Positions 7,201 through 30,235 of a DNA stretch of 34,249 nucleotides are shown here, one piece after another. Below the pieces are notes generated by a model. The model was not told the DNA's origin, did no database searches, and saw only the letters and a list, made by a program, of their open reading frames with translations. The position numbers were made by a program, and so were the translations under genes. Source of the stretch: Synergistaceae bacterium (GTDB taxonomy: Bacteria; Synergistota; Synergistia; Synergistales; Synergistaceae); NCBI GenBank assembly GCA_030539135.1, contig JAUNSQ010000002.1:1-34249 (forward strand), given 5' to 3'. Numbering within the stretch: the stretch's first letter is position 1; each line of letters starts with the position of its first letter.

Positions 7201-7244
7201 CGAGCCACGTAAATCCGGTTGTGATACGCGCGGCTCGTTTTTTT
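7201..7244 (+). terminator. putative intrinsic terminator closing the CarD-like gene group
   Basis: CGAGCC (7201-06) pairs with GGCTCG (7232-37), with 3 further pairs inside, followed by TTTTTTT (7238-44). The loop is long. Confidence 0.45.
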
Positions 7245-7271
7245 GTGCGAACAGATAAGGAGAACACCATA

Positions 7272-7757
7272 ATGTCAGAAGAAAATACAGCAACAATAAA
7301 TCCTGAAAAATACGATTACGGCAAAGGCGGCGCGTACTATGTCACGGTCTGTGTCAAGGGCGGGCAGAATATCCTGTGGAAATACGCCTCAAATGTGGAC
7401 GCTGACAGCGCGGATAACACGCCACCGTTGTCAGGGCAGGGCGAACATGTCGCCGAGGCCGTCAAGTCCGTGTTTGACGAAAACAAAAACGCCGTACTGG
7501 ACAAGATGGTCGTCATGCCCAACCACATTCATTTGACGCTTTTCGTCACATTGGAGAAGGCGCAGAAGTCCGCCGTGATAAAGAGGACAGTATCAAACAT
7601 AATGGGACAAATCAAGCGCGCCACGTCGAAAGACGCGGCGTGGCAGGAATCGTATTATGACAGGCTCGTTCACGACGCCGCGCAGTATCGGAAGATATGC
7701 GAGTATATAGAAGCGAACCCGTCAAAGTGGACGGAAGACTGCTACTTCAGGGAATAA
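7272..7757 (+). CDS. IS200/IS605-type Y1 (HUH) transposase-like protein, RAYT-like
   Basis: HUH motif MPNHIHL, and the Y1 region WQESYYDRLVHDAAQYRKICEYIEANPSKW, which is the typical WQxxFyDhiiR...YIxxNP pattern. AAGGAG precedes the ATG at 7272. I saw no terminal hairpins and no tnpB. Confidence 0.75.
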   Translation: MSEENTATINPEKYDYGKGGAYYVTVCVKGGQNILWKYASNVDADSADNTPPLSGQGEHVAEAVKSVFDENKNAVLDKMVVMPNHIHLTLFVTLEKAQKSAVIKRTVSNIMGQIKRATSKDAAWQESYYDRLVHDAAQYRKICEYIEANPSKWTEDCYFRE

Positions 7758-9411: not shown

Positions 9412-9909
9412 ATGAATCCGATAGTCGATCTTCCGGAACCGCTCATATTGGGGCTGCACGCTCTAGGCTATATAGCGCGTGAACCGGGAAAATGCTTTAC
9501 CACTCAGCAGGTGGCGGCGGGGCTCGAAACGCCGGAACCTCACCTTTCCAAAGTGCTTCAACGTCTTAACAAGAGCGAACTTATCAAATCTGTGCGCGGC
9601 CCCGGCGGCGGGTACAAGCTCAACTGCGTCCCTAAAGAGACTCCGCTCCGCGTAGTCTTCGAAGTACTCGGCGGCGCGTTCACGCCTCGCGGATGCGGAA
9701 TGGACGGCTGCAAGGGCAAACCGTGTTTCATTGGCGATATGCTTGATGAGTTGACTATGGCGTTTATACGCTACCTCGAGTCGCGTACCCTTGAGGATTT
9801 TATTAAGTATTACGACGAAAAAATTCAGGTTGAGATAGAGATATCCGTCATCACGCCTAGCTTGGGGCAGACGCATCCGAATTTCGCGCACCTGAAGAAG
9901 AAATCCTAA
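9412..9909 (+). CDS. Rrf2-family transcriptional regulator with a three-Cys putative Fe-S site
   Basis: The wHTH region is LGLHALGYIAREPGKCFTTQQVAAGLETPEPHLSKVLQRLNKSELIKSVRGPGGGYKL. The Cys cluster is CGMDGCKGKPC. AAAGGAGG precedes the ATG at 9412. Confidence 0.85.
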   Translation: MNPIVDLPEPLILGLHALGYIAREPGKCFTTQQVAAGLETPEPHLSKVLQRLNKSELIKSVRGPGGGYKLNCVPKETPLRVVFEVLGGAFTPRGCGMDGCKGKPCFIGDMLDELTMAFIRYLESRTLEDFIKYYDEKIQVEIEISVITPSLGQTHPNFAHLKKKS

Positions 9910-9983
9910 GAAAAGCAAAGAACCAAATGGCATTTATAAATTTATAAATTAAAACAAACTAATTAAAGAGAGGGTCTTTCCGT

Positions 9984-11249
9984 ATGAAATTGAAGAGGTT
10001 TTTCACAGCAGCACTTGTTATCGCCGCGCTTATGATACCAGTCGCGGCAAACGCCGAGGGCTTCGGCGTCTATGAATGGAGCGCCAGCGGATCCGGTATG
10101 GGCGAGGCGTATATGTTCGGCGAAGAGGACCCTGCCGTCCTCGCTTACAACCCGGCGGCCATCACGAAGCTCAACGGGCGTTATTTCAGCGCCGGCGTCA
10201 GCTTCTTTGACCCGCATGACAGCAACAGGTTCAACTTTGCGGACGGGACTTCCACATCGTACAACAACAACTACAGCACCGCGACGGCTCCATATCTTTA
10301 CTATGTGGACAAGGCGGGAGAAAACGCATGGTGGGGCGTGGCCCTGTTCGCGCGCTATGGCAACAACCTTGAATACGACACAAAATGGCCGGGACGTTAC
10401 GATACTATCTTCTCAGGGATCAAAGGCTTTACGGTACAGCCGACATACGCTTGGAAGTTTGGCAAAGGCTGGTCGGCCGCGGTCGGGCTCGATATCAACA
10501 TGGTCAACTTGGAAATGCAGAAGGCAAATTATACAGGGACTCCTTATGATATATATTCCAAAATCGACGGAACGAGCTATGCCATAGGCGGCGTCGTAGC
10601 CATCAATTATGACTTCAACCCCAACACGTCCGCGGGCTTGGTCTATCGCACAAGGATAAAGCACAACATGGATGCGGACGCTGATTTTTCAAGCCGTATA
10701 CCGTCCGGCAATTTCTCGACGCAGGCACATGGCAGCGTAACGCTCCCAGATTCGCTCACGTTCGGCGTCAGCCATAAGTTCAACGAGGGCAGAACTCGCG
10801 TTGAAGCCGACGTCGTATGGACAAATTGGACGACGTATGACGCTTTGAACCTTCACTTCGACCACGCTGTCGGCGTCAATCCAATGACGGGACAGCCAAT
10901 CTACGATGTCAACTCGATCAAGGACTGGAAAGCGGCATGGCGCATCAACCTCGGTGTCGAGCACAAGCTCAGTAAGAGGTGGAGCATACTTCTCGGATAT
11001 GTTTGGGATCAGAGCCCTGTTCCCGACAACAGGATGGACTTCACTGTTCCGACAGGCGACAGACATCGTGGAAGTATAGGCTTCAAATACCGTCCGAATG
11101 AAAACTCCGAATGGTCTATCGCTTATACCGCGATCGTACCCGCCGAGAGGACCGTGTACCCGACGGCAGGCGCAAACTTCCAGAGCGCTACCACATACGA
11201 CGGCTTGACGCAGGTCGTAGCGATCGGCTACACGATGAAACTTAAATAG
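9984..11249 (+). CDS. outer-membrane FadL/TodX (OMPP1) family hydrophobic-compound transport protein
   Basis: Signal peptide is MKLKRFFTAALVIAALMIPVAANA|EGF. It contains GxGMGxA...NPA motifs, alternating beta-strand patterns and an aromatic C-terminus (YTMKLK). Confidence 0.8.
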   Translation: MKLKRFFTAALVIAALMIPVAANAEGFGVYEWSASGSGMGEAYMFGEEDPAVLAYNPAAITKLNGRYFSAGVSFFDPHDSNRFNFADGTSTSYNNNYSTATAPYLYYVDKAGENAWWGVALFARYGNNLEYDTKWPGRYDTIFSGIKGFTVQPTYAWKFGKGWSAAVGLDINMVNLEMQKANYTGTPYDIYSKIDGTSYAIGGVVAINYDFNPNTSAGLVYRTRIKHNMDADADFSSRIPSGNFSTQAHGSVTLPDSLTFGVSHKFNEGRTRVEADVVWTNWTTYDALNLHFDHAVGVNPMTGQPIYDVNSIKDWKAAWRINLGVEHKLSKRWSILLGYVWDQSPVPDNRMDFTVPTGDRHRGSIGFKYRPNENSEWSIAYTAIVPAERTVYPTAGANFQSATTYDGLTQVVAIGYTMKLK

Positions 11250-23180: not shown

Positions 23181-23216
23181 GGGAGCCTTTCACGATTGTG
23201 AGGGGCTCCTTTTTTT
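23181..23216 (+). terminator. intrinsic terminator (attenuator) upstream of the OFOR operon
   Basis: GGGAGCCUUUCAC-GAUU-GUGAGGGGCUCC forms a 12-13 bp stem followed by UUUUUUU. It sits 29 nt upstream of the gamma-subunit ATG. Confidence 0.8.
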
Positions 23217-23244
23217 GTGGTTTAAATCAAAGGAGGAGTTTCAA

Positions 23245-23823
23245 ATGGAAAAAGGCAAGACGATCGAAGTACGCTGGCACGGACGCGGGGGACAGGGAGC
23301 GAAGAGCGCTTCCGCGATACTAGCTGAGGTGCTGTTTGAGGGAGGAAAACACGTGCAGGCTTTCCCGGAGTACGGAGCGGAGCGTCAGGGTGCGCCGATG
23401 CGAGCCTATAACAGGGTCTCCGACAGGCCCATACGCCGCCGCTGCGGGGTCCAGAACCCAAATATAGTCGTCGTCGTAGACCCGACGATGGTCGAGAGCG
23501 CAAACCCATGCGAGGGCTGCGCGAAGGACGCCGTATATCTCGTGAACACGCCGGAGGACGCGAAGACCCTGCGCGAGAGGATGCACCTCTCACAGCGCGC
23601 GAAAGTGCTGGCGGTAGACGCTACGAAGATAACGCTCGAGGAGCTTGGGCAGAACAGGCCGAACGCGCCGATACTCGGAGCGCTGTCGAGGATATTCACG
23701 GACGTATCCGTAGATAATTTCGCCGACCACTTCACGAAGAAGATGAAGAAGCTGCCGCAGAACGTCATAGACGCGAACCGCAGGGCGATACTCAGAGGCC
23801 GCGAAGAGGCGGTGCTGGCATGA
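23245..23823 (+). CDS. 2-oxoacid:ferredoxin oxidoreductase, gamma subunit (POR/VOR family)
   Basis: Contains GRGGQGAKSASAILAE...AFPEYGAERQGAP. AAAGGAGG SD. Confidence 0.85.
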   Translation: MEKGKTIEVRWHGRGGQGAKSASAILAEVLFEGGKHVQAFPEYGAERQGAPMRAYNRVSDRPIRRRCGVQNPNIVVVVDPTMVESANPCEGCAKDAVYLVNTPEDAKTLRERMHLSQRAKVLAVDATKITLEELGQNRPNAPILGALSRIFTDVSVDNFADHFTKKMKKLPQNVIDANRRAILRGREEAVLA

Positions 23824-24164
23824 GCGAACCGCAGTGCTGGCAGGACGTCGCTCCCGGGACTGTCGCTTTCGGCGCGACCGCGCTGGAAGTGGAGACCGGG
23901 CTTTGGCGGAGCGTGCGTCCTGTCTTCGACCTCAATAAATGCGTGTCATGTATGAAATGCTGGTTCCAGTGCCCGGATATGTCAGTCAAACTGGGCGAAG
24001 GCGGCAAGGTTTGCGGAGCAGACCTCTTCTTCTGCAAGGGCTGCGGGATATGCGCTTCCGTCTGTCCGGTGAAAGCCGTAACGATGCGTCCCGAATCAGA
24101 TTTCAGCGACGAACGTGATAAACATGGCGCGAACCCCGGAGGCGTGGCCGACCATGTCAAATAA
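23820..24164 (+). CDS. 2-oxoacid:ferredoxin oxidoreductase, delta subunit (2x[4Fe-4S] ferredoxin-type)
   Basis: Contains CVSCMKCWFQCP and CKGCGICASVCP. ATGA overlap with the gamma subunit gene. Confidence 0.85.
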   Translation: MSEPQCWQDVAPGTVAFGATALEVETGLWRSVRPVFDLNKCVSCMKCWFQCPDMSVKLGEGGKVCGADLFFCKGCGICASVCPVKAVTMRPESDFSDERDKHGANPGGVADHVK

Positions 24165-25347
24165 GAGACGCGAGATGACCTCGGGAAACTTGGCTTTCGC
24201 CGAGGCGATGAGGCAGATAAATCCAGACGTCGTAGCCGCGTACCCTATAACCCCGTCCACCGATATCCCCGTCCGCTTCGCCGAATTTGTCGCGAACGGG
24301 CAGGTAGATTCCGAATATGTTGCGGTCGAGAGCGAGCACTCCGCGATAACGGCATGCGTGGGCGCGTCCGTCGCCGGCGCGCGCGTCATGACCGCGTCGA
24401 GCGCCAACGGAGTCGCGCTGATGCATGAGATATTCCCTATAGCTTCGGCCTTTAGGGCCCCGATCGTATTTGGCCTTGTGAACAGATGCCTCGGAGCGCC
24501 GGTCAATATCCACTGCGACCATTCGGACAGCATGGCCGAGCGAGATTCTGGGTGGATACAGATATACTGCGAGGACGCGCAGGAAGTCTACGACAGCGTG
24601 CTTCTCGCGGTCAGGCTGGCGGAGCATAAGAAGGTGCTTACTCCTGTGTTCGTCTGTCAGGACGGATTTATAACGAGCCATTGTTTTGAGCCTGTGGAAT
24701 TCCTCGCCGACGACGCGGTGAAAAAATTTGTCGGCGTCCGCGACCCGCAGTACCCCCTGCTTGACGTTGACAACCCCGTTTCATACGGCTCGTTCACGAT
24801 GTCCGAATACTATTTTGAGATCAAACGCAATCAGATAGAGGGCATCAACAACGTGCCGAAAGTATATCGCGAACTGTCGGCGGAGTTGGCGAAAGAGACC
24901 GGCCGCGAATATCCGATGGTCGACGCTTACAGGGCCGACGACGCGGACTATCTGATAATCATCATGTCCTCCGCGTCGGGAGTCGTCAAGGACGTCGTCG
25001 ATGAGATGCGCGAGGACGGCGTAAAGGCAGGATGTCTGCGCGTGAGGTTTTTCCGCCCGTTTCCGAAGGACGACTTGATGCGCCTTGTGAACGGCAAGAA
25101 GGGAGTCGCCGTTCTTGACAGGTGCCTTAGCATCGGAGGTTCGGCCCCGCTTGCCGCGGAGGTCAAGGCCGCGCTCTATGGGCTTGAACGCCGCGTGCCT
25201 GTGCAGGAATATGTGTTCGGCCTCGGAGGCCGCGATTTCTATCCAAAGGACGCCATCGACGTGTTCTGCAAGCTGGCCGATGATAATTACAGCCCGTCAG
25301 TGCGTTACATAGGCCTCCGCGAGAAGGAGGAAGAAAATGTCTATTGA
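24154..25347 (+). CDS. 2-oxoacid:ferredoxin oxidoreductase, alpha subunit
   Basis: Contains GNLAFAEAMRQINPDVVAAYPITPSTDI. The start is uncertain (ATG at 24154 or 24175); the track start at 24115 is probably too early. Confidence 0.85.
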   Translation: MSNKRREMTSGNLAFAEAMRQINPDVVAAYPITPSTDIPVRFAEFVANGQVDSEYVAVESEHSAITACVGASVAGARVMTASSANGVALMHEIFPIASAFRAPIVFGLVNRCLGAPVNIHCDHSDSMAERDSGWIQIYCEDAQEVYDSVLLAVRLAEHKKVLTPVFVCQDGFITSHCFEPVEFLADDAVKKFVGVRDPQYPLLDVDNPVSYGSFTMSEYYFEIKRNQIEGINNVPKVYRELSAELAKETGREYPMVDAYRADDADYLIIIMSSASGVVKDVVDEMREDGVKAGCLRVRFFRPFPKDDLMRLVNGKKGVAVLDRCLSIGGSAPLAAEVKAALYGLERRVPVQEYVFGLGGRDFYPKDAIDVFCKLADDNYSPSVRYIGLREKEEENVY

Positions 25348-26266
25348 TCTCAAGGAACTCATAAAGAAGCCGAACCCCCTTACTCAGGGGCATCGCATGT
25401 GCCCGGGCTGCGGAGCGCCGACGGCGATACGCCAAGCTCTCATGGCTGTGGACGACCCAGTAGTTATCGTGGGGGCCACGGGGTGCATGGAGGTATCGAC
25501 GACTGTATATCCATACAGCGCGTGGCGCGTCCCGTTCATGCACGTGGCTTTTGAGAACGCGGGGGCTGGAATATCCGGCGTGCAGGCCGCGCATAAGGTA
25601 TTGAGCAGACAGGGCCGCGCGAAAGAGGGTATTAAATTCGTCGCGTTCGGCGGTGACGGGGGAACGTACGATATCGGGCTTCAGTCGCTCTCAGGCGCGC
25701 TAGAACGCGGGCATGACTTTACGTACATCTGCTACAACAATCAGGGCTACATGAACACGGGGGCGCAGAGGAGCAGCGCTACGCCGCTGAACGCGAGCGC
25801 GACCACCTCGCCCGCCGGGAGCGTCATCCCCGGAAAATTGCAGAGGGCGAAAGACCTTACGGAGATCGTAGCGGCACACAACATACCTTATGTTGCGCAG
25901 ACGACGTTGCACGACCCTATGGACCTCATAAAGAAAGTCAAGAGGGCCGTAGAGACGCCCGGCCCGGCGTTCGTCAACGTGCTCGTCCCGTGCGTCCTCT
26001 TCTGGAAGATAGACCAAGGCGACCAGATGAAGATATGTCAGTTGGCCGCCGACAGCCGTTTCTGGCCCGTGTACGAGGTCGCGGGCGGGAAATACAGCCT
26101 ATCATACAAGCCGAAGAAGGACGTCCCGCTTGAGGACTTTCTTCGCGCGCAGGGCAGATACTCGCACCTCTTCAAAAAGGGCAGGGAGCGCATGGACCTC
26201 GTAGCGGCCGCGCAGGCCGACGTTGACGAGAGCTGGAAGAAACTGCTTGTGAAGTGCGCGCTCTAA
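25337..26266 (+). CDS. 2-oxoacid:ferredoxin oxidoreductase, beta (TPP-binding) subunit
   Basis: Contains GHRMCPGCG and FGGDGGTYDIG...NNQGYMNTG. Confidence 0.85.
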   Translation: MSIDLKELIKKPNPLTQGHRMCPGCGAPTAIRQALMAVDDPVVIVGATGCMEVSTTVYPYSAWRVPFMHVAFENAGAGISGVQAAHKVLSRQGRAKEGIKFVAFGGDGGTYDIGLQSLSGALERGHDFTYICYNNQGYMNTGAQRSSATPLNASATTSPAGSVIPGKLQRAKDLTEIVAAHNIPYVAQTTLHDPMDLIKKVKRAVETPGPAFVNVLVPCVLFWKIDQGDQMKICQLAADSRFWPVYEVAGGKYSLSYKPKKDVPLEDFLRAQGRYSHLFKKGRERMDLVAAAQADVDESWKKLLVKCAL

Positions 26267-26306
26267 TGATAAGTTTTGCGAAATATCCGCTTTGTATAAA
26301 TTTGCG

Positions 26307-26335
26307 TTGTGTTTTACAAAAATATGTGATATTAT
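26307..26335 (+). promoter_or_regulatory. candidate extended -10 promoter of the Trp-leader/trpB transcript
   Basis: TTGTGT (26307-12), a 17-nt spacer, then TGaTATTAT (extended -10; hexamer at 26330-35). Confidence 0.4.
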
Positions 26336-26367
26336 CCACGCAATCTTGAGATTTAGGGGAAATTTTT

Positions 26368-26427
26368 ATGGTATCAGTTCTTGCGAACGACATGAATAAA
26401 ACAAACTGGTGGTGGCTTCGCGCTTAG
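26368..26427 (+). CDS. Trp-run leader peptide (19 aa)
   Basis: MVSVLANDMNKTNWWWLRA. AGGGGA lies 8 nt upstream of the ATG. There are three consecutive UGG codons at 26407-26415. Confidence 0.65.
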   Translation: MVSVLANDMNKTNWWWLRA

Positions 26428-26460
26428 AATGCCCGCCGGTTTCCCTGTGTATTGATGTAA

Positions 26461-26499
26461 GGGCTCGGACGGGTAAAACGTCGGAGCCCTTTTTATTTT
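26461..26499 (+). terminator. intrinsic terminator T1 (attenuator) upstream of trpB
   Basis: GGGCUCGGACG-GGUAAAA-CGUCGGAGCCC (10 bp, one G.G mismatch) followed by UUUUUAUUUU. Confidence 0.75.
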
Positions 26500-26506
26500 G
26501 GAAGAG

Positions 26507-26544
26507 ATGAAAGGGGAGGAAACAAACCCCTTTCATTTTTTTAT
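26507..26544 (+). terminator. second intrinsic terminator T2 in the trpB leader
   Basis: AUGAAAGGGG-AGGAAACAAA-CCCCUUUCAU forms a perfect 10-bp stem followed by UUUUUUUA. Confidence 0.65.
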
Positions 26545-26595
26545 ATATCGAATACAGCTGAGATAAGCTGAGAAAAGACTGAGGAGGAAACAATC

Positions 26596-27792
26596 ATGAC
26601 AACAAGGACAGCAGGTTTTCCAGAGGGAAAAATGTACGGGAATTTCGGCGGCATGTACGTGCCGAAGGAACTAGAGCCGATAATGACGGAGATCGCCGCG
26701 GAATACGAGAAGTGCAAGGCCGACCCTACGTTCAAAGAAGAATATCTAAGGCTCATGAAGGAATATGTCGGCCGCCCGTCCGCGCTGACAGAATGCGGGA
26801 ACCTTTCAAAAGAGACAGGAGGCGCGCGTATCTTCCTAAAGCGCGAAGACCTGAACCATACCGGAGCGCACAAGATAAACAACTGCATCGGACAGGCCCT
26901 TCTTGCCCGCCGCATGGGAAAGAAAAAGATAATAGCCGAGACTGGAGCCGGGATGCACGGAGTCGCCGCCGCGACCGTAGCCGCCCTGATGGGCATGGAG
27001 TGCGACATCTATATGGGAGCTGTGGACGTGGCGCGTCAGGCTCCGAACGTACTGCGCATGAAGGCTCTGGGGGCGCGGGTCGTATCCGTCGAGGCGGGAC
27101 AGAAGACATTGAAGGAGGCCGTCGACGCGGCGCTCGGCGCGCTGTGCGAGGACACGTCGCTCTTCTACCTCATAGGCTCTGCGGTGGGGCCGCACCCGTA
27201 TCCGGCGATGGTGCAGGACTTCCAGCGGATAATAGGCGACGAGGCGAGGGCGCAGATGCTTGAGCGCGAAGGCCGTCTGCCCGACGCGGTAGTCGCTTGC
27301 GTAGGCGGCGGGAGCAACGCGATAGGGGCTTTCACGGCTTTCATAAACGACAAAGGCGTGAGGCTCATCGGAGTCGAGCCTTCCGGCCGCGGGCTGACCT
27401 ATGGCAACCACGCCGCGTCTCTCACGATGGGCAGGCCCGGCGTTCTTCACGGATTTAAGAGCTATGTGCTGACGAAGGACGACGGCGAACCCGCGGAAGT
27501 ATATTCGATAGCGGCGGGGCTCGATTATCCGTCAGTTGGCCCCGCTCACGCCGCGCTCAAAGAGAGCGGCCGCGGCGAGTATATAGGCGCGAGCGACGCG
27601 GAGGCGTTAGACGCCTTCAAGCTCCTCTGCCGCACCGAGGGCATAATCCCCGCGCTTGAAAGCTCGCACGCCTTGGCAGGGGCTCTCAAAGCAGCGAAGA
27701 CCATGAAGGCGGGAGACATCATCCTAGTCAACCTCTCCGGCCGCGGCGACAAAGATATGGAGACCATCGCGAAATTAGGGATATTGGATTAA
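26596..27792 (+). CDS. trpB: tryptophan synthase beta chain (TrpB1-type), stand-alone
   Basis: Contains [15 protein letters not shown] (PLP lysine), [16 protein letters not shown] and SGRGDKD. GAGGAGG SD. No trpA or other trp genes are in the window. Confidence 0.9.
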
Positions 27793-27857: not shown

Positions 27858-27931
27858 GTGATATGTTCCACGATGCTCGCTTTTGTGCTAATATTTTATA
27901 GATACAATCGGTTGCATTGCGAGGTGGTCGA

Positions 27932-28510
27932 ATGAAAGTTACTATGAGCGACGTGGCGAAGGCCGCGGGAGTCGATAAAGCTACCGTCAGCCGGGCCTTG
28001 AAGGGCGACCCCCGGATATCCGAGAAGACCAGGGCGCTTGTCATGGACAGCGTGCGCACGCTTGGCTACAGACCCGACCTCAACGCCCGCCACCTTTCGA
28101 CGAACCGCAGCGGCTTCATCGGCCTGCTGCTCAGGGAGCTCAACGCGCCCGGAAGCATCGAGTTCATCTCCGGGCTTGACCGAGCTATTTCCAATTCCGA
28201 ATATGACCTTCTCATAAAGTGCACCGACGGCGACCCGCGCAGGGCCGCGCGCGAGCTTGCCAAACTGTCCGACAGGGACATCGAGGGTTTGATATGGGAA
28301 GATTCGGAGAACTTGCCTAAGGATATTTCCGTGCCATTGCTGACCATCGGATTTAAGCACAGTGGTTCAATATCATTGCTGTCCGAGGACGGTGGGCGGC
28401 TCCTGACATTTGAGACGGGAGCTCTAGCCGGGAGGCTGCTGCTGAACGCGATAATGGGGCGGCCTGTCCCGACCCACGAGGTCATCATCAGAAATTCCAA
28501 AGGGGAATAA
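27932..28510 (+). CDS. LacI-family HTH regulator, unusually short (192 aa)
   Basis: The HTH is MKVTMSDVAKAAGVDKATVSRALKGDPRISEKTRALVMDSVRTLGYRPDLNARHL. This is followed by only about 130 aa of sugar-binding-like domain, whereas normal family members have about 270 aa. Confidence 0.8.
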   Translation: MKVTMSDVAKAAGVDKATVSRALKGDPRISEKTRALVMDSVRTLGYRPDLNARHLSTNRSGFIGLLLRELNAPGSIEFISGLDRAISNSEYDLLIKCTDGDPRRAARELAKLSDRDIEGLIWEDSENLPKDISVPLLTIGFKHSGSISLLSEDGGRLLTFETGALAGRLLLNAIMGRPVPTHEVIIRNSKGE

Positions 28511-28516
28511 TATATT

Positions 28517-30235
28517 TTGACGATATTATTTTCACCGCATAGAAATCATCTCATAAGAATATTTTCATTTGCCGTGCTGTTCGCAGCGGCAATATTTGTT
28601 TTAGCGCCAGCCGCCCGTGCGGAGCGGAGGTTCGATCCGGCGAAGGTATACGGCCCCCGCATCGATAAGCTGTGCATGGTCATCATCAGAAATTCCGACT
28701 CACAGATACTCGCCGCGCAGAAGGGCGACATAGATATATTGGGCGATATCGTGCTGCCTTCGGATATCGACAGACTCAGCCGCGACCCAAATCTGAACAT
28801 GTCGCTTGCCCGAGGGTTTCACGCTTTCTTTCTGCTGATGAACAACAAGACCGCGCCGTGGAACGATAAATACGTGCGCCAAGCCGCCGCCGCGGCCATC
28901 GACCGCAACAATATGGTGAGAACGATATATTCCGGGTACTGCGAACCGATAAACAGCTGGCTTCCTCCCGTCTCCCCTTGGGCGATACCCGAGAGCGGGA
29001 AAAATATCTTTGACCGCGGGCTTGCGCGTGAAAAGCTCAAATCTGCGGGGTATTCATGGAACTTGGCTGGGACGCTTGTGGCTCCAAACGGCAAGGCTAT
29101 TCCCAAACTCAAACTGATGACGCCTCTGGCGCGCGTCGCCCCGACGACGGCGGAGCTCGCGGAGCAGATAGCCGATTCTCTGCGGGCGGTGGGCTTTCCC
29201 GTAGAGGTAGAGCCTATGGATTTCTCGGCGATGCTCGCCAAGCTGAACGACAAAAAATATTCCTTGGCCGTACTTGCGTGGGGTATGGGGCGCAACCCTG
29301 ACTCGCTGTACTCGTTCTACCACAGCTCGATGGACATGCCCGGAGGACAAAATCTCACGGGCACGCATGACAAGCAGCTTGACAATACGCTCGACCGCCT
29401 GCGCTTCGCGAAGAACAAGCAGGACGCTGAGAGGGCGTCGTCGGAGGCGCAGCATCTGCTGGCAGACCTGGTGCCGTCCGTCCCTATATACAGCCGCTTC
29501 TCAGTCGCGGCCGTCTCAAAAAAGTGGAAGAACGTGCTGATGACGGACAAGATAACCGCGGACAACATGTGGACGCTGATGATGGCGGAGCCAAAGGACG
29601 GGAAGAAACGGCCGCTGAACATGGCGCTCGCCGAGGAGCCGCGCAACATGAACCCGTTTGTAGCGAGCAGCGCTTACACGTGGCAGGTGCTTGGAATGAT
29701 ATACGAAGGGATGATAGGGACCGACCCGTTCACTCTGAAAGATATGCCGGCTCTGGCGGAGTCATGGAGCGTCGAGACCGTTGGCGGCGGGGCGGACGCC
29801 CGCACAGTCCTCAATTTCAAAATCAAAAAGGGGCTGAAGTGGAACGACGGGACGCCTCTGACCGCGCATGACGCAAAGGCCACTATAGACTTCCTGAAAA
29901 AGAATAAAGTGCCGCGATATTTCGACGCGGTGAAGAATGTTAAATCGACAGCTGCCTACGACGACGGGCGGCTCGTCGTCCAGATGGACGGCGTCAGCTA
30001 TTGGCATCTGGACAATATAGGCGGCATGATAGTCATGCCGGCGCGGGTGTTGGAGAAGATAAAGGACTGGCAGAACTGGAACCCGCTGGATAAGAGCGCG
30101 AAGTTCGGACCTTACGGACTTATAGGCTGCGGCCCGTTCATGCTTGAGGAATACAAGACCGGCGAATACGTTATGATGAAGCGCAATCCGTATTACAGGA
30201 TGCTCGCCGGTCCGAGAGGCGGCGCGGCGAAATGA
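28517..30235 (+). CDS. ABC transporter substrate-binding protein, family 5 (Opp/Dpp/Nik-type), circularly permuted
   Basis: Signal peptide ends ..AVLFAAAIFVLAPAARA|E. Residues ~45-345 look like the C-terminal two-thirds of DppA-type SBPs (VRQAAAAAIDRNNMV...). Residues ~360-560 look like the canonical N-terminal third (NMNPF...IYEGM...PALAESWSV...KKGLKWNDGTPLTAHD...GCGPFML). TTG start. Confidence 0.85.
   Translation: MTILFSPHRNHLIRIFSFAVLFAAAIFVLAPAARAERRFDPAKVYGPRIDKLCMVIIRNSDSQILAAQKGDIDILGDIVLPSDIDRLSRDPNLNMSLARGFHAFFLLMNNKTAPWNDKYVRQAAAAAIDRNNMVRTIYSGYCEPINSWLPPVSPWAIPESGKNIFDRGLAREKLKSAGYSWNLAGTLVAPNGKAIPKLKLMTPLARVAPTTAELAEQIADSLRAVGFPVEVEPMDFSAMLAKLNDKKYSLAVLAWGMGRNPDSLYSFYHSSMDMPGGQNLTGTHDKQLDNTLDRLRFAKNKQDAERASSEAQHLLADLVPSVPIYSRFSVAAVSKKWKNVLMTDKITADNMWTLMMAEPKDGKKRPLNMALAEEPRNMNPFVASSAYTWQVLGMIYEGMIGTDPFTLKDMPALAESWSVETVGGGADARTVLNFKIKKGLKWNDGTPLTAHDAKATIDFLKKNKVPRYFDAVKNVKSTAAYDDGRLVVQMDGVSYWHLDNIGGMIVMPARVLEKIKDWQNWNPLDKSAKFGPYGLIGCGPFMLEEYKTGEYVMMKRNPYYRMLAGPRGGAAK

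What the first reader, a model, noticed from the sequence alone, without database searches (positions are those of the whole stretch)
26307..26595. WWW leader-peptide attenuator controlling a stand-alone trpB
The mini-ORF MVSVLANDMNKTNWWWLRA (26368-26427) is preceded by an SD and carries three consecutive UGG codons. Trp is normally the rarest residue.

Four RNA segments behave like the classical trpL regions 1-4:
- A: GGUGGUGG (26408-15), the Trp codons themselves.
- B: GCCCGCCGG (26431-39).
- C: GGGCUCGGACGGGU (26461-74).
- D: CGUCGGAGCCC (26479-89).

Their pairings:
- A can pair with B (U10.G38, G11-C37, G12-C36, U13.G35, G14-C34, G15-C33).
- B can pair with C: G31.U74, C32-G73, C33-G72, C34-G71, G35-C70, with A69 bulged, then C36-G68, C37-G67, G38-C66, G39.U65. 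This is the antiterminator.
- C:D followed by U5AU4 is the terminator.

The target is unusual. It is not a trp operon but a lone TrpB1-type gene, with no trpA, trpC, trpD, trpE, trpF or trpG within 7 kb on either side. My inference is an indole (plus serine) salvage module, switched on by Trp starvation in an organism that may lack the rest of the pathway.
Basis: partly seen in the sequence, partly recalled or inferred. Interest (0 to 1): 0.7.

Follow-up and report, generated by a model that had tools for sequence, protein, structure and literature searches.

The report
Tryptophan-sensing leader controlling lone trpB
A short tryptophan-rich leader peptide with switchable RNA hairpins most likely turns on a solitary tryptophan synthase beta gene when tryptophan runs low; this is a textbook mechanism in a new bacterial group, controlling an enzyme that seems to work without its usual partner.

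Summary
The mini-ORF MVSVLANDMNKTNWWWLRA* (26368-26427) holds the only TGGTGGTGG in the window. Segments A-D sit at the stated coordinates and pair as described.

The interpretation as a trpL-type ribosome-mediated attenuator is well supported:
- Thirteen distinct Synergistaceae/Cloacibacillus leaders upstream of orthologous trpB keep an 18-20 codon ORF. Each has 2-4 consecutive UGG codons, 1-3 codons before the stop.
- All keep the three mutually exclusive helices 1:2, 2:3 and 3:4, and the terminator stem shows compensatory changes.
- One relative has lost start codon, Trp codons, stop codon, segment 2 and most of terminator 1 together.

No Rfam family matches the region.

It is present in 9 of 13 leaders.

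trpB is solitary in every locus, with different neighbours each time. All lone TrpBs contain no Trp. They also lack the helix-6 residues N171, R175 and W177, which are invariant in trpA-linked enzymes. This argues for a TrpA-independent enzyme that makes tryptophan from indole.

Lone trpBs of this type in other lineages carry a Trp T-box or other Trp-rich leaders.

Whether the genome lacks the other trp genes could not be tested. One Synergistaceae genome is reported to be a Trp prototroph.

Verdict: a new member of a known kind, of moderate interest.

The parts
26307..26335 (+). Putative promoter: -35 TTGTGT (26307-12), 17-nt spacer, extended -10 TGaTATTAT (26327-35). Transcription would start near 26341-43.
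   Evidence: Read from the sequence. An equivalent TTGC..-17 nt-..TGnTAtnAT arrangement sits upstream of the leaders in relatives. The consensus scan did not call it because the -35 is weak. Inferred.
26355..26360 (+). Shine-Dalgarno (AGGGGA) of the leader ORF.
   Evidence: Twelve of 13 orthologous leaders have GGGG/GGAGG 6-10 nt before the ATG.
26368..26427 (+). Leader ORF MVSVLANDMNKTNWWWLRA*, ending in a UAG stop.
26407..26415 (+). Three consecutive UGG (Trp) codons, the sensor. They form part of segment 1 (26402-26415).
26431..26442 (+). Segment 2 (GCCCGCCGGUUU). It pairs either with segment 1 or with segment 3. It starts 4 nt after the stop codon, so a terminating ribosome would cover it.
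   Evidence: The CCCGCCGGUU box is nearly invariant in relatives.
26443..26463 (+). Inner helix of the antiterminator (CCCU 26443-46 with AGGG 26460-63) and its loop, which holds a conserved CUGUGU motif.
26461..26474 (+). Segment 3, the 5' arm of terminator T1. In the antiterminator it pairs with segment 2.
26479..26499 (+). Segment 4, the 3' arm of T1 (26479-89), plus the U5AU4 tract (26490-99).
   Evidence: Ten of 13 T1 pairs show compensatory changes across 13 leaders.
26506..26542 (+). Second intrinsic terminator T2: stem 26506-16 / 26527-37, U7 at 26536-42. Its 5' arm is complementary to the T1 3' arm plus U tract.
   Evidence: Present in 9 of 13 leaders.
26581..26587 (+). Shine-Dalgarno (GAGGAGG) of trpB.
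26596..27792 (+). trpB: TrpB1-type tryptophan synthase beta, 398 aa, no Trp residues, with variant COMM helix 6 (D171, G175, L177 in E. coli numbering).
   Evidence: TIGR00263 scores 573 bits against a cutoff of 392. Other evidence.

Best explanation
This is a ribosome-mediated (leader-peptide) transcription attenuator that reads the supply of charged tRNA-Trp and controls a monocistronic trpB.

**Proposed mechanism.** Transcription starts about 25 nt upstream of a 19-codon leader ORF.
- Trp plentiful: the ribosome runs to the UAG stop and covers segment 2 (26431-42). Segment 3 then pairs with segment 4, and RNA polymerase stops at T1. Any escapers stop at T2.
- Trp-tRNA scarce: the ribosome stalls on the three UGG codons. 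Segment 2 stays free and pairs with segment 3, so T1 cannot form.
- The freed segment 4 with its U tract can then pair with the purine-rich 5' arm of T2, letting polymerase pass both terminators into trpB.
- No translation: 1:2 and 3:4 both form, which gives termination.

**The regulated enzyme.** It is a TrpB1-type beta subunit with no Trp residues, so it can be made during Trp starvation. It has lost helix-6 residues that contact TrpA. It most likely condenses free indole with serine on its own.

**Shown versus inferred.**
- Shown: the sequence elements, their conservation, and the energetics and covariation of the helices.
- Inferred: the promoter, stalling-dependent read-through, the T2 relay and the enzyme's independence from TrpA.
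For: **The element itself.**
- Elements lie at the stated coordinates.
- It holds the only TGGTGGTGG in the window.
- Fold z-score is -5.1.

**Conservation across 13 distinct leaders.**
- All have 2-4 consecutive UGG codons 1-3 codons before the stop, while the rest of the peptide varies.
- Every leader can form 1:2 (-13 to -22 kcal/mol), 2:3 (-16 to -28) and 3:4 (-19 to -28) (L172 was read by hand).
- In seven leaders tested, 2:3 beats shuffled controls (2-29 of 300 shuffles as good). For the two leaders with a divergent segment 2, the cognate segment 3 pairs best.
- RNAalifold recovers 1:2 and T1, with 10 of 18 pairs showing compensatory changes, all ten in T1.

**Link to trpB rather than to upstream genes.**
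- The leader travels with trpB into unrelated neighbourhoods, some with divergent upstream genes.
- In L084 the start codon, UGG run, stop, segment 2 and T1 (-11.3 vs -27.4 kcal/mol) have all decayed, while the promoter and the trpB ribosome-binding site are kept.

**The enzyme.**
- All 19 lone TrpBs examined have zero Trp, against 1.2% locally.
- Variant helix-6 TrpBs: 0 of 31 loci hold trpA. Canonical TrpBs: 133 of 133 loci with enough sequence do.
- The discriminating positions 20, 171, 175, 177, 282 and 293 lie in or near elements that contact TrpA (PMC8187860).

**Same logic in other lineages.**
- A Trp T-box with specifier UGG precedes lone trpB in Clostridia MAGs.
- Trp-rich leaders precede lone trpB in L072 and L089.
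Against: - There are no expression data. All structures are predicted.
- At equilibrium T1 is as stable as, or more stable than, the antiterminator, as in other attenuators, so the switch must be kinetic.
- T2 is a problem for the simple model. The proposed relay (T1 3' arm with T2 5' arm, -14 to -17 kcal/mol) shows no cognate preference over non-cognate pairs. It may just reflect generic CCCUUUU/AAAGGG complementarity.
- One leader (L169) has no obvious Shine-Dalgarno.
- Two related loci (L003, L084) manage without a working leader.
- The trpA-linked comparison set is almost entirely Proteobacteria, so the helix-6 contrast is confounded with phylogeny. E. coli and the LBCA reconstruction do share N171, R175 and W177.
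- A Synergistaceae genome is reported to be a Trp prototroph, so a TrpA may exist elsewhere in this genome.
Confidence: 0.8

Rival explanations
1. The attenuator is real, but trpB is not a salvage gene. It would be the beta subunit of a complete, dispersed de novo pathway, with trpA and trpE-G, D, C, F elsewhere and perhaps carrying the same leader. It would simply be transcribed separately.
For: - PMC9026213 Table S5 scores Synergistes sp. 3_1_syn1 (family Synergistaceae) as a Trp prototroph.
- trp genes are split into several operons in many bacteria, for example S. meliloti (PMC6614838).
Against: - The lone TrpBs have replaced N171, R175 and W177 and vary at position 20. These are invariant in 137 trpA-linked TrpBs and lie in the helix that contacts TrpA.
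- No trpA lies within 10 kb in about 30 loci.
- Position 175 is hypervariable (A/E/G/K/T...), as expected for a surface no longer under constraint.
Confidence: 0.2
2. The mini-ORF is fortuitous. T1 and T2 are ordinary tandem terminators of the upstream por operon, and trpB has its own unregulated promoter.
For: - porB ends at 26266 and no other terminator lies between it and T1.
- In L085 a second copy of the promoter core lies downstream of T2.
Against: - The leader ORF, UGG run, segment 2 and terminators stay with trpB in loci whose upstream genes are unrelated or divergently oriented.
- The UGG run is conserved while the peptide varies.
- No promoter-like site lies between T2 and trpB in the window.
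- The elements decay together in L084.
Confidence: 0.03
3. Read-through is controlled by a factor other than the ribosome: a TRAP-like protein, uncharged tRNA (T-box) or a metabolite-binding riboswitch.
For: Such systems do control trp genes in Firmicutes. The nearest non-Synergistaceae lone trpBs use a Trp T-box.
Against: - No Rfam family reaches even E = 0.1 on 26200-26700.
- The 10 GAG/UAG triplets are scattered, not the 9-11 regularly spaced repeats TRAP needs.
- The conserved features are a translatable ORF with a Shine-Dalgarno and tandem UGG codons.
Confidence: 0.03
4. In addition to acting in cis, the terminated leader transcript (about 150-200 nt, ending at T1 or T2) serves as a trans-acting small RNA or yields a functional peptide, as reported for rnTrpL and peTrpL in Sinorhizobium.
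For: - There is precedent in PMC6614838.
- Tandem strong terminators would give a stable, defined small transcript.
Against: - There are no data on this.
- The peptide sequence outside the W run is poorly conserved.
- No target complementarity was looked for.
Confidence: 0.08

Closest known systems
E. coli / Salmonella trpL attenuator (Rfam Trp_leader RF00513)
   Same: - A short translated leader with tandem UGG codons near its end.
- Four segments giving 1:2, 2:3 (antiterminator) and 3:4 (terminator plus U-run).
- The stop codon is close enough to segment 2 for a terminating ribosome to mask it.
   Different: - No sequence or structure homology: no Rfam hit.
- Two to four UGG codons instead of two.
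- A second terminator follows in 9 of 13 leaders.
- It controls one gene (trpB) rather than trpEDCBA.
- It occurs in Synergistota; the literature searches returned no description of a Trp leader-peptide attenuator for this phylum.
Chlamydia trachomatis trpRBA indole-salvage operon with TrpL-type attenuation (PMC7755916)
   Same: Genes that make Trp from indole are placed under Trp-dependent attenuation in an organism living where indole is available.
   Different: - Chlamydia keeps trpA as an allosteric partner (PMC8376405).
- It also uses the TrpR and YtgR repressors.
- Here trpB is alone and no repressor site was identified.
Trp-specific T-box leaders (RF00230) upstream of lone trpB in Clostridia MAGs (L004, L088)
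   Same: - The same regulated gene type: lone trpB with the helix-6 variant and no Trp residues.
- The same signal (uncharged tRNA-Trp) and the same output (terminator or antiterminator).
   Different: The sensor is a direct tRNA-mRNA contact rather than a stalled ribosome. The RNAs are unrelated.
TrpB2 'indole rescue' paralogues and orphan trpB genes (Mycoplasma californicum, PMC4081997; protists, PMC12483993)
   Same: A beta subunit encoded without an adjacent alpha subunit and proposed to use free indole.
   Different: - This protein is TrpB1-type. TIGR00263 scores 573 bits, while the TrpB2 model TIGR01415 scores 171 against a cutoff of 519.
- It comes with a dedicated Trp sensor.
Stand-alone-active TrpBs studied for allostery (LBCA TrpB, Pelodictyon plTrpB; PMC11917138)
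   Same: - LBCA TrpB is the best PDB match (522 bits).
- The lone TrpBs share the LBCA-type Ser at E. coli position 190 (LBCA S187).
   Different: - Only 1 of the 6 'Res6' residues is shared.
- LBCA and plTrpB keep N171, R175 and W177 and have TrpA partners.
- Activity of the Synergistaceae enzyme is untested.

Membership tests
Leader-peptide (ribosome-mediated) transcription attenuators | A short ORF with a ribosome-binding site and a run of codons for the regulating amino acid | tested here: met
   AGGGGA lies 7 nt before the ATG. The 19 codons include UGG x3 at codons 14-16.
Leader-peptide (ribosome-mediated) transcription attenuators | The regulatory codon run is conserved among relatives while the rest of the peptide drifts | tested here: met
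   Thirteen distinct peptides all have WW, WWW or WWWW 1-3 codons before the stop.
Leader-peptide (ribosome-mediated) transcription attenuators | An intrinsic terminator between the leader ORF and the structural gene | tested here: met
   T1 is -19 to -28 kcal/mol with a U-run in all 13 leaders. Ten of 13 stem pairs show compensatory changes.
Leader-peptide (ribosome-mediated) transcription attenuators | An antiterminator (2:3) mutually exclusive with the terminator, and 1:2 sequestering the regulatory codons | tested here: met
   - 2:3 is -16 to -28 kcal/mol and uses 6-15 nt of the T1 5' arm.
- It is better than shuffles in 7 of 7 leaders tested.
- The cognate pair is best for L081 and L002.
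- 1:2 is -13 to -22 kcal/mol.
Leader-peptide (ribosome-mediated) transcription attenuators | Geometry: a ribosome at the stop masks segment 2, while a ribosome stalled on the regulatory codons leaves it free | tested here: met
   Segment 2 starts 4 nt after the UAG and 16 nt after the last UGG. In relatives it starts 2-4 nt after the stop. This assumes a footprint of about 12-15 nt 3' of the A site.
Leader-peptide (ribosome-mediated) transcription attenuators | Amino-acid-dependent read-through in vivo or in vitro | not testable with these tools
   No expression data are available.
Rfam Trp_leader (RF00513) | A match to the covariance model | tested here: not met
   There is no hit at the gathering threshold, nor up to E = 10 on 26200-26700.
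T-box leader (RF00230) | A match to the model with a specifier loop and T-box sequence | tested here: not met
   Absent in the window and in all Synergistaceae loci. Present in L004 and L088 with specifier UGG.
TRAP-regulated trp leader | Nine to eleven (G/U)AG triplets separated by 2-3 nt | tested here: not met
   Ten triplets are scattered irregularly over 255 nt.
TrpB1 tryptophan synthase beta (TIGR00263) | A score above the curated cutoff, and the PLP-binding lysine | tested here: met
   The score is 573 bits against 392. HTGAHK aligns with the K87 motif.
TrpB1 tryptophan synthase beta (TIGR00263) | The canonical TrpA-contacting COMM helix 6 (N171, R175, W177, S178) and an adjacent trpA | tested here: not met
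   The window has D171, G175, L177 and C178. No trpA is in the window or in any locus with this variant: 0 of 31, against 133 of 133 for the canonical form.
TrpB2 (TIGR01415) | A score above the curated cutoff | tested here: not met
   The score is 171 bits against 519.
Indole-salvage module in a Trp auxotroph | The genome lacks trpA, trpC, trpD, trpE, trpF and trpG | not testable with these tools
   Only the 34 kb window and 10 kb flanks of relatives could be read, and none holds another trp gene. A related genome is reported to be prototrophic.

The most novel reading that the evidence does not exclude
The lone trpB genes define a natural, TrpA-independent branch of TrpB1 enzymes.
- They carry a remodelled COMM helix 6, contain no Trp, and have Ser at position 190.
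- The branch spreads through anaerobes: Synergistaceae, Clostridia, Halanaerobiales and others.
- It has been wired at least three separate times to sensors of uncharged tRNA-Trp: the Synergistaceae WW(W) leader, the different Trp-rich leaders of L072 and L089, and Trp T-boxes.
- In the Synergistaceae version, two terminators in series would be opened by a relay. The antiterminator frees the 3' arm of T1, which then sequesters the 5' arm of T2.
Probability: 0.4. Interest if true: 0.6.

Novelty: new member of a known kind. Interest (0 to 1): 0.42.

Why it matters
- **Reach of the mechanism.** Leader-peptide attenuation is a textbook mechanism. This extends it to Synergistota with a family that no Rfam model detects, so such elements are currently invisible to annotation.
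- **What it controls.** The target is a beta subunit that appears to have given up its alpha partner. Natural stand-alone TrpB1 enzymes are actively sought for biocatalysis and for studies of allostery. A 2025 screen of 6373 sequences found a single candidate (PMC11917138).
- **Ecology.** A Trp-starvation-induced enzyme that turns indole into Trp in amino-acid-fermenting gut and digester bacteria would be a sink for microbial indole.
- **Tandem terminators.** If relayed, they would be a simple way to lower basal read-through without losing inducibility.

Tried and rejected
- **Rfam scans** of the window and of the leader at E <= 10 gave nothing relevant.
- **The consensus promoter/terminator scan** missed all elements because its loop and stem rules were too strict.
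- **An exact look-up of the window's TrpB** found it not on record, so the source genome could not be identified.
- **MAFFT alignments of the leaders** put the T1 arms in different registers. I therefore did not use the count of structure pairs for the 2:3 helix. I used per-sequence constrained folds, shuffles and cognate versus non-cognate swaps instead.
- **My automatic T1 finder** picked the antiterminator in L172. I corrected this by eye.
- **A first tblastn with one Pseudomonas TrpA** found nothing, even in Firmicutes loci. This is what led to the discovery that those trpBs are also lone.
- **A first motif script** had an index error; it was fixed.
- **Weak 'TrpA' HMM hits** in L002, L081 and L168 are alternative-frame artefacts inside trpB.
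- **The T2 relay** showed no cognate preference, so it is kept only as an inference.
- **The LBCA 'Res6' stand-alone signature** is matched at only 1 of 6 positions.
- **Literature searches** for Synergistetes or Cloacibacillus trp genes returned nothing specific.
- **The Trp sheet of PMC9026213 Table S2** is truncated before 'S'.
- **No route was found** to search a Synergistaceae genome for trpA or trpE.

Full report
**1. Observation**

- An AGGGGA Shine-Dalgarno (26355-60) precedes ATG 26368.
- The ORF reads MVSVLANDMNKTNWWWLRA and stops at UAG 26425-27.
- The three UGG codons (26407-15) are the only TGGTGGTGG on either strand of the 34 kb window, where 0.08 are expected.
- Trp makes up 1.2% of residues in 26 window ORFs.
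- Segments B (26431-39), C (26461-74) and D (26479-89), and the U5AU4 tract (26490-99), are at the stated positions.
- The 259-nt leader folds far better than shuffles: -84 against -61.2 +/- 4.5 kcal/mol, z = -5.1.

Three corrections apply.
- The A:B register is ambiguous because UGG repeats. The minimum-energy fold uses 26402-15 with 26431-42.
- A likely promoter is TTGTGT-17 nt-TGaTATTAT (26307-35).
- A second intrinsic terminator, T2 (26506-42: GAUGAAAGGGG...CCCCUUUCAU followed by U7), lies between T1 and trpB and was not in the finding.

**2. Gene context**

- ORF 26596-27792 is a TrpB1-type tryptophan synthase beta: TIGR00263 at 573 bits against a cutoff of 392. The TrpB2 model is far below its cutoff.
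- Upstream lies a four-subunit 2-oxoacid:ferredoxin oxidoreductase (porCDAB, 23215-26266).
- Downstream lie a truncated LacI-family gene and an Opp-type ABC transporter.
- Nothing else in the window is a trp gene.

**3. Relatives**

- Scans of species-representative genomes and of metagenomes, followed by look-ups of homologues, place the gene in Synergistaceae (Cloacibacillus porcorum, Cloacibacillus sp., Synergistes sp., many MAGs). TrpB identities to the window's TrpB run from 75 to 92%, then drop to about 60% for the next relatives.
- In every locus trpB is monocistronic, and the neighbours differ from locus to locus. They include LrgB, a beta-lactamase-fold gene, V-ATPase, UvrAB, GGDEF, ZnuA, a transposase and restriction systems.
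- The leader and trpB therefore move as a self-contained unit.

**4. The leader is conserved as a leader**

- Thirteen distinct leader peptides were recovered.
- All are 18-20 residues long, and 12 of 13 have a Shine-Dalgarno.
- All carry 2, 3 or 4 consecutive UGG codons 1-3 codons before the stop, which is UAG in 12 of 13.
- Examples: MISVPANNMINKTSWWWLRV, MPICRFYSINTNIKGWWRGF, MKSALSLTTKKYFYWWWL, MRSFTDLTNKNFNWWWSV, MSKVSANTTLKNCWWWWR, MERSHDIDRFSLNGFWWWR.
- Apart from the W run the peptides diverge, which is the signature of a regulatory leader.

**5. The three alternative helices are conserved**

- Every leader can form 1:2 (-13 to -22 kcal/mol), 2:3 (-16 to -28) and the T1 hairpin 3:4 (-19 to -28) followed by a U-run (L172 was corrected by eye).
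- RNAalifold on the 13 sequences recovers 1:2 and T1. Ten of 18 pairs show compensatory changes, all ten in T1.
- In seven leaders tested, the 2:3 energy beats dinucleotide shuffles of the upstream segment (2 to 29 of 300 shuffles as good).
- In the two leaders whose segment 2 has diverged (L081 CUCCACGG, L002 CCACCCAACGG), the cognate segment 3 pairs best.
- Segment 2 begins 2-4 nt after the stop codon, so a terminating ribosome would mask it, while a ribosome stalled at UGG leaves it free.

**6. A natural knock-out**

L084 carries a leader clearly homologous to those of L083, L164 and L170. It has lost the start codon, the UGG run, the stop codon and the CCCGCCGG box. Three bases of the T1 3' arm are deleted, giving -11.3 against -27.4 kcal/mol. 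The promoter and the trpB ribosome-binding site remain conserved. Joint decay is what a functional unit predicts, because losing the sensor alone would shut trpB off.

**7. The second terminator**

- T2 is present in 9 of 13 leaders.
- If it were unregulated it would block induced transcripts as well.
- In all five leaders examined, the 3' arm of T1 plus its U tract can pair with the purine-rich 5' arm of T2 at -14 to -17 kcal/mol. T2 itself is -15 to -22.
- Formation of 2:3 could therefore relay to T2. However, non-cognate combinations pair equally well, so this may be generic CCCUUUU/AAAGGG complementarity.
- I treat the relay as an inference, with roughly a one-in-three chance of being functional.

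**8. Rivals for the RNA**

- No Rfam family matches.
- There is no T-box and no regular (G/U)AG array for TRAP.
- The idea that T1 and T2 merely terminate the por operon fails. The elements follow trpB into loci with unrelated or divergent upstream genes.

**9. Is this TrpB really stand-alone?**

Genome-wide absence of trpA and trpE-G could not be tested. A published reconstruction scores Synergistes sp. 3_1_syn1 as a Trp prototroph and Pyramidobacter piscolens as an auxotroph (PMC9026213 Table S5).

The protein itself is informative. I compared 26 distinct lone TrpBs (Synergistaceae, Clostridia, Halanaerobiales and three others) with 137 distinct trpA-linked TrpBs.
- Positions invariant in the linked set and different in the lone set include E. 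coli numbering 171 (N to D), 175 (R to A/E/G/K/T...), 177 (W to L/F/Y), 20 (variable), 282 (to F), 293, and 190 (T to S).
- Of loci with the variant helix 6, 0 of 31 hold trpA. Of loci with the canonical helix and enough sequence, 133 of 133 do.
- Helix 6 of the COMM domain is the beta element that contacts alpha loops 2 and 6, and residues 171, 175 and 20 are named contacts (PMC8187860).
- Ser at position 190 is the residue of the stand-alone-active LBCA enzyme, but only 1 of its 6 signature residues is shared (PMC11917138).
- All 19 lone TrpBs examined contain no Trp.
- Caveat: the linked set is almost all Proteobacteria. E. coli and LBCA agree with it at 171, 175 and 177.

**10. The same logic recurs elsewhere**

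- The nearest non-Synergistaceae relatives (Clostridia MAGs L004 and L088, about 60% identity) are also lone. They carry a T-box whose specifier is UGG.
- Two other lone trpBs carry unrelated Trp-rich leaders followed by a terminator. L072 has MKIINNNNWWTTFLW*, with an antiterminator overlapping the stop. L089 has ...NNWWIVW....

**11. Comparison with known systems, and verdict**

- Functionally this is a trpL-type attenuator. It is not a member of Rfam RF00513.
- The literature searches returned no description of it. Orphan trpB genes have been noted (PMC4081997), and Trp attenuation of salvage genes is known in Chlamydia (PMC7755916).
- I rate it a new member of a known kind, of moderate interest. 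The value lies mostly in the apparently TrpA-independent TrpB1 clade it controls and in the tandem-terminator layout.

Noticed in passing
window 26506-26542: A second intrinsic terminator (T2) lies between T1 and trpB. It is present in 9 of 13 orthologous leaders and absent in the L082/L083/L164/L170 group. Its 5' arm is complementary to the T1 3' arm plus U tract.
   Followed up: partly
window 26503-26525 and 26571-26593: A 23-nt direct repeat at 78% identity. The T2 5' arm and loop (AGAGATGAAAGGGGAGGAAACAA) resembles the trpB Shine-Dalgarno region (AGAAAAGACTGAGGAGGAAACAA).
   Followed up: no
L084 3205-3495: A decayed homologue of the L083/L170 leader. The start codon, UGG run, stop, segment 2 and most of T1 are lost together, while the promoter and trpB ribosome-binding site are kept.
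   Followed up: yes
L003 (DAISYG010000034, labelled Casimicrobiaceae) 9875-11179: It holds a Synergistaceae-type lone trpB (75% identity, helix-6 variant) with no leader, directly after a UPF0149 gene. The contig GC of 54% matches Synergistaceae contigs, so the bin label may be wrong.
   Followed up: partly
TrpB proteins of all fetched loci (window 26596-27792 and L001-L174): There is a strict split. TrpBs with D171, non-R175 and L/F/Y177 (E. coli numbering) never have trpA in the locus (0 of 31). TrpBs with N171, R175 and W177 always do (133 of 133). The lone type also has S190, V192 and usually F282, and contains no Trp.
   Followed up: yes
L004 4751-4994 and L088 1493-1735: A Trp-specific T-box (specifier UGG) lies upstream of lone trpB in Clostridia MAGs. 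It is followed by a 4-codon mini-ORF with a strong Shine-Dalgarno (ATG TGG CAA AAA TGA, MWQK*) before trpB.
   Followed up: partly
L072 8251-8345; L089 upstream of about 5995: Unrelated Trp-rich leader peptides precede other lone trpB genes: MKIINNNNWWTTFLW* plus a terminator with an antiterminator overlapping the stop (L072), and MNKLVNIKLNNWWIVWENVNHLYKFVML* (L089).
   Followed up: partly
L002 about 640-660, L085 about 1888-1900, L172 about 420-435: A conserved ATGACYTGAAAG (mini-ORF M-T-stop) lies between T2 and trpB in the three leaders with long T2-to-trpB spacers. L085 also has a second copy of its promoter core (1867-1886 against 1608-1627, 90% identity) downstream of T2.
   Followed up: no
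L005 about 9760-9960: Upstream of a Halanaerobiales lone trpB there is a GAG/UAG-rich stretch followed by a terminator-like hairpin. It might be a TRAP-type leader. No T-box is present.
   Followed up: no
window 27917-28510 and 28517-30235: The LacI-family ORF is truncated (197 aa: the HTH plus a partial sensor domain). The next ORF (572 aa) matches SBP_bac_5 families in permuted order: residues 47-340 match the C-terminal half of the models and residues 360-560 match the N-terminal half. This suggests a rearrangement or pseudogenes.
   Followed up: no
window 7221-7757: A weak IS200/Y1-transposase-like ORF overlaps the end of a PTS EIIC gene on the other strand.
   Followed up: no
leader stop codons in 13 loci: The leader stop codon is UAG in 12 of 13 leaders (UAA in L169), and it sits in the loop of the 1:2 hairpin. 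No reason was established.
   Followed up: no
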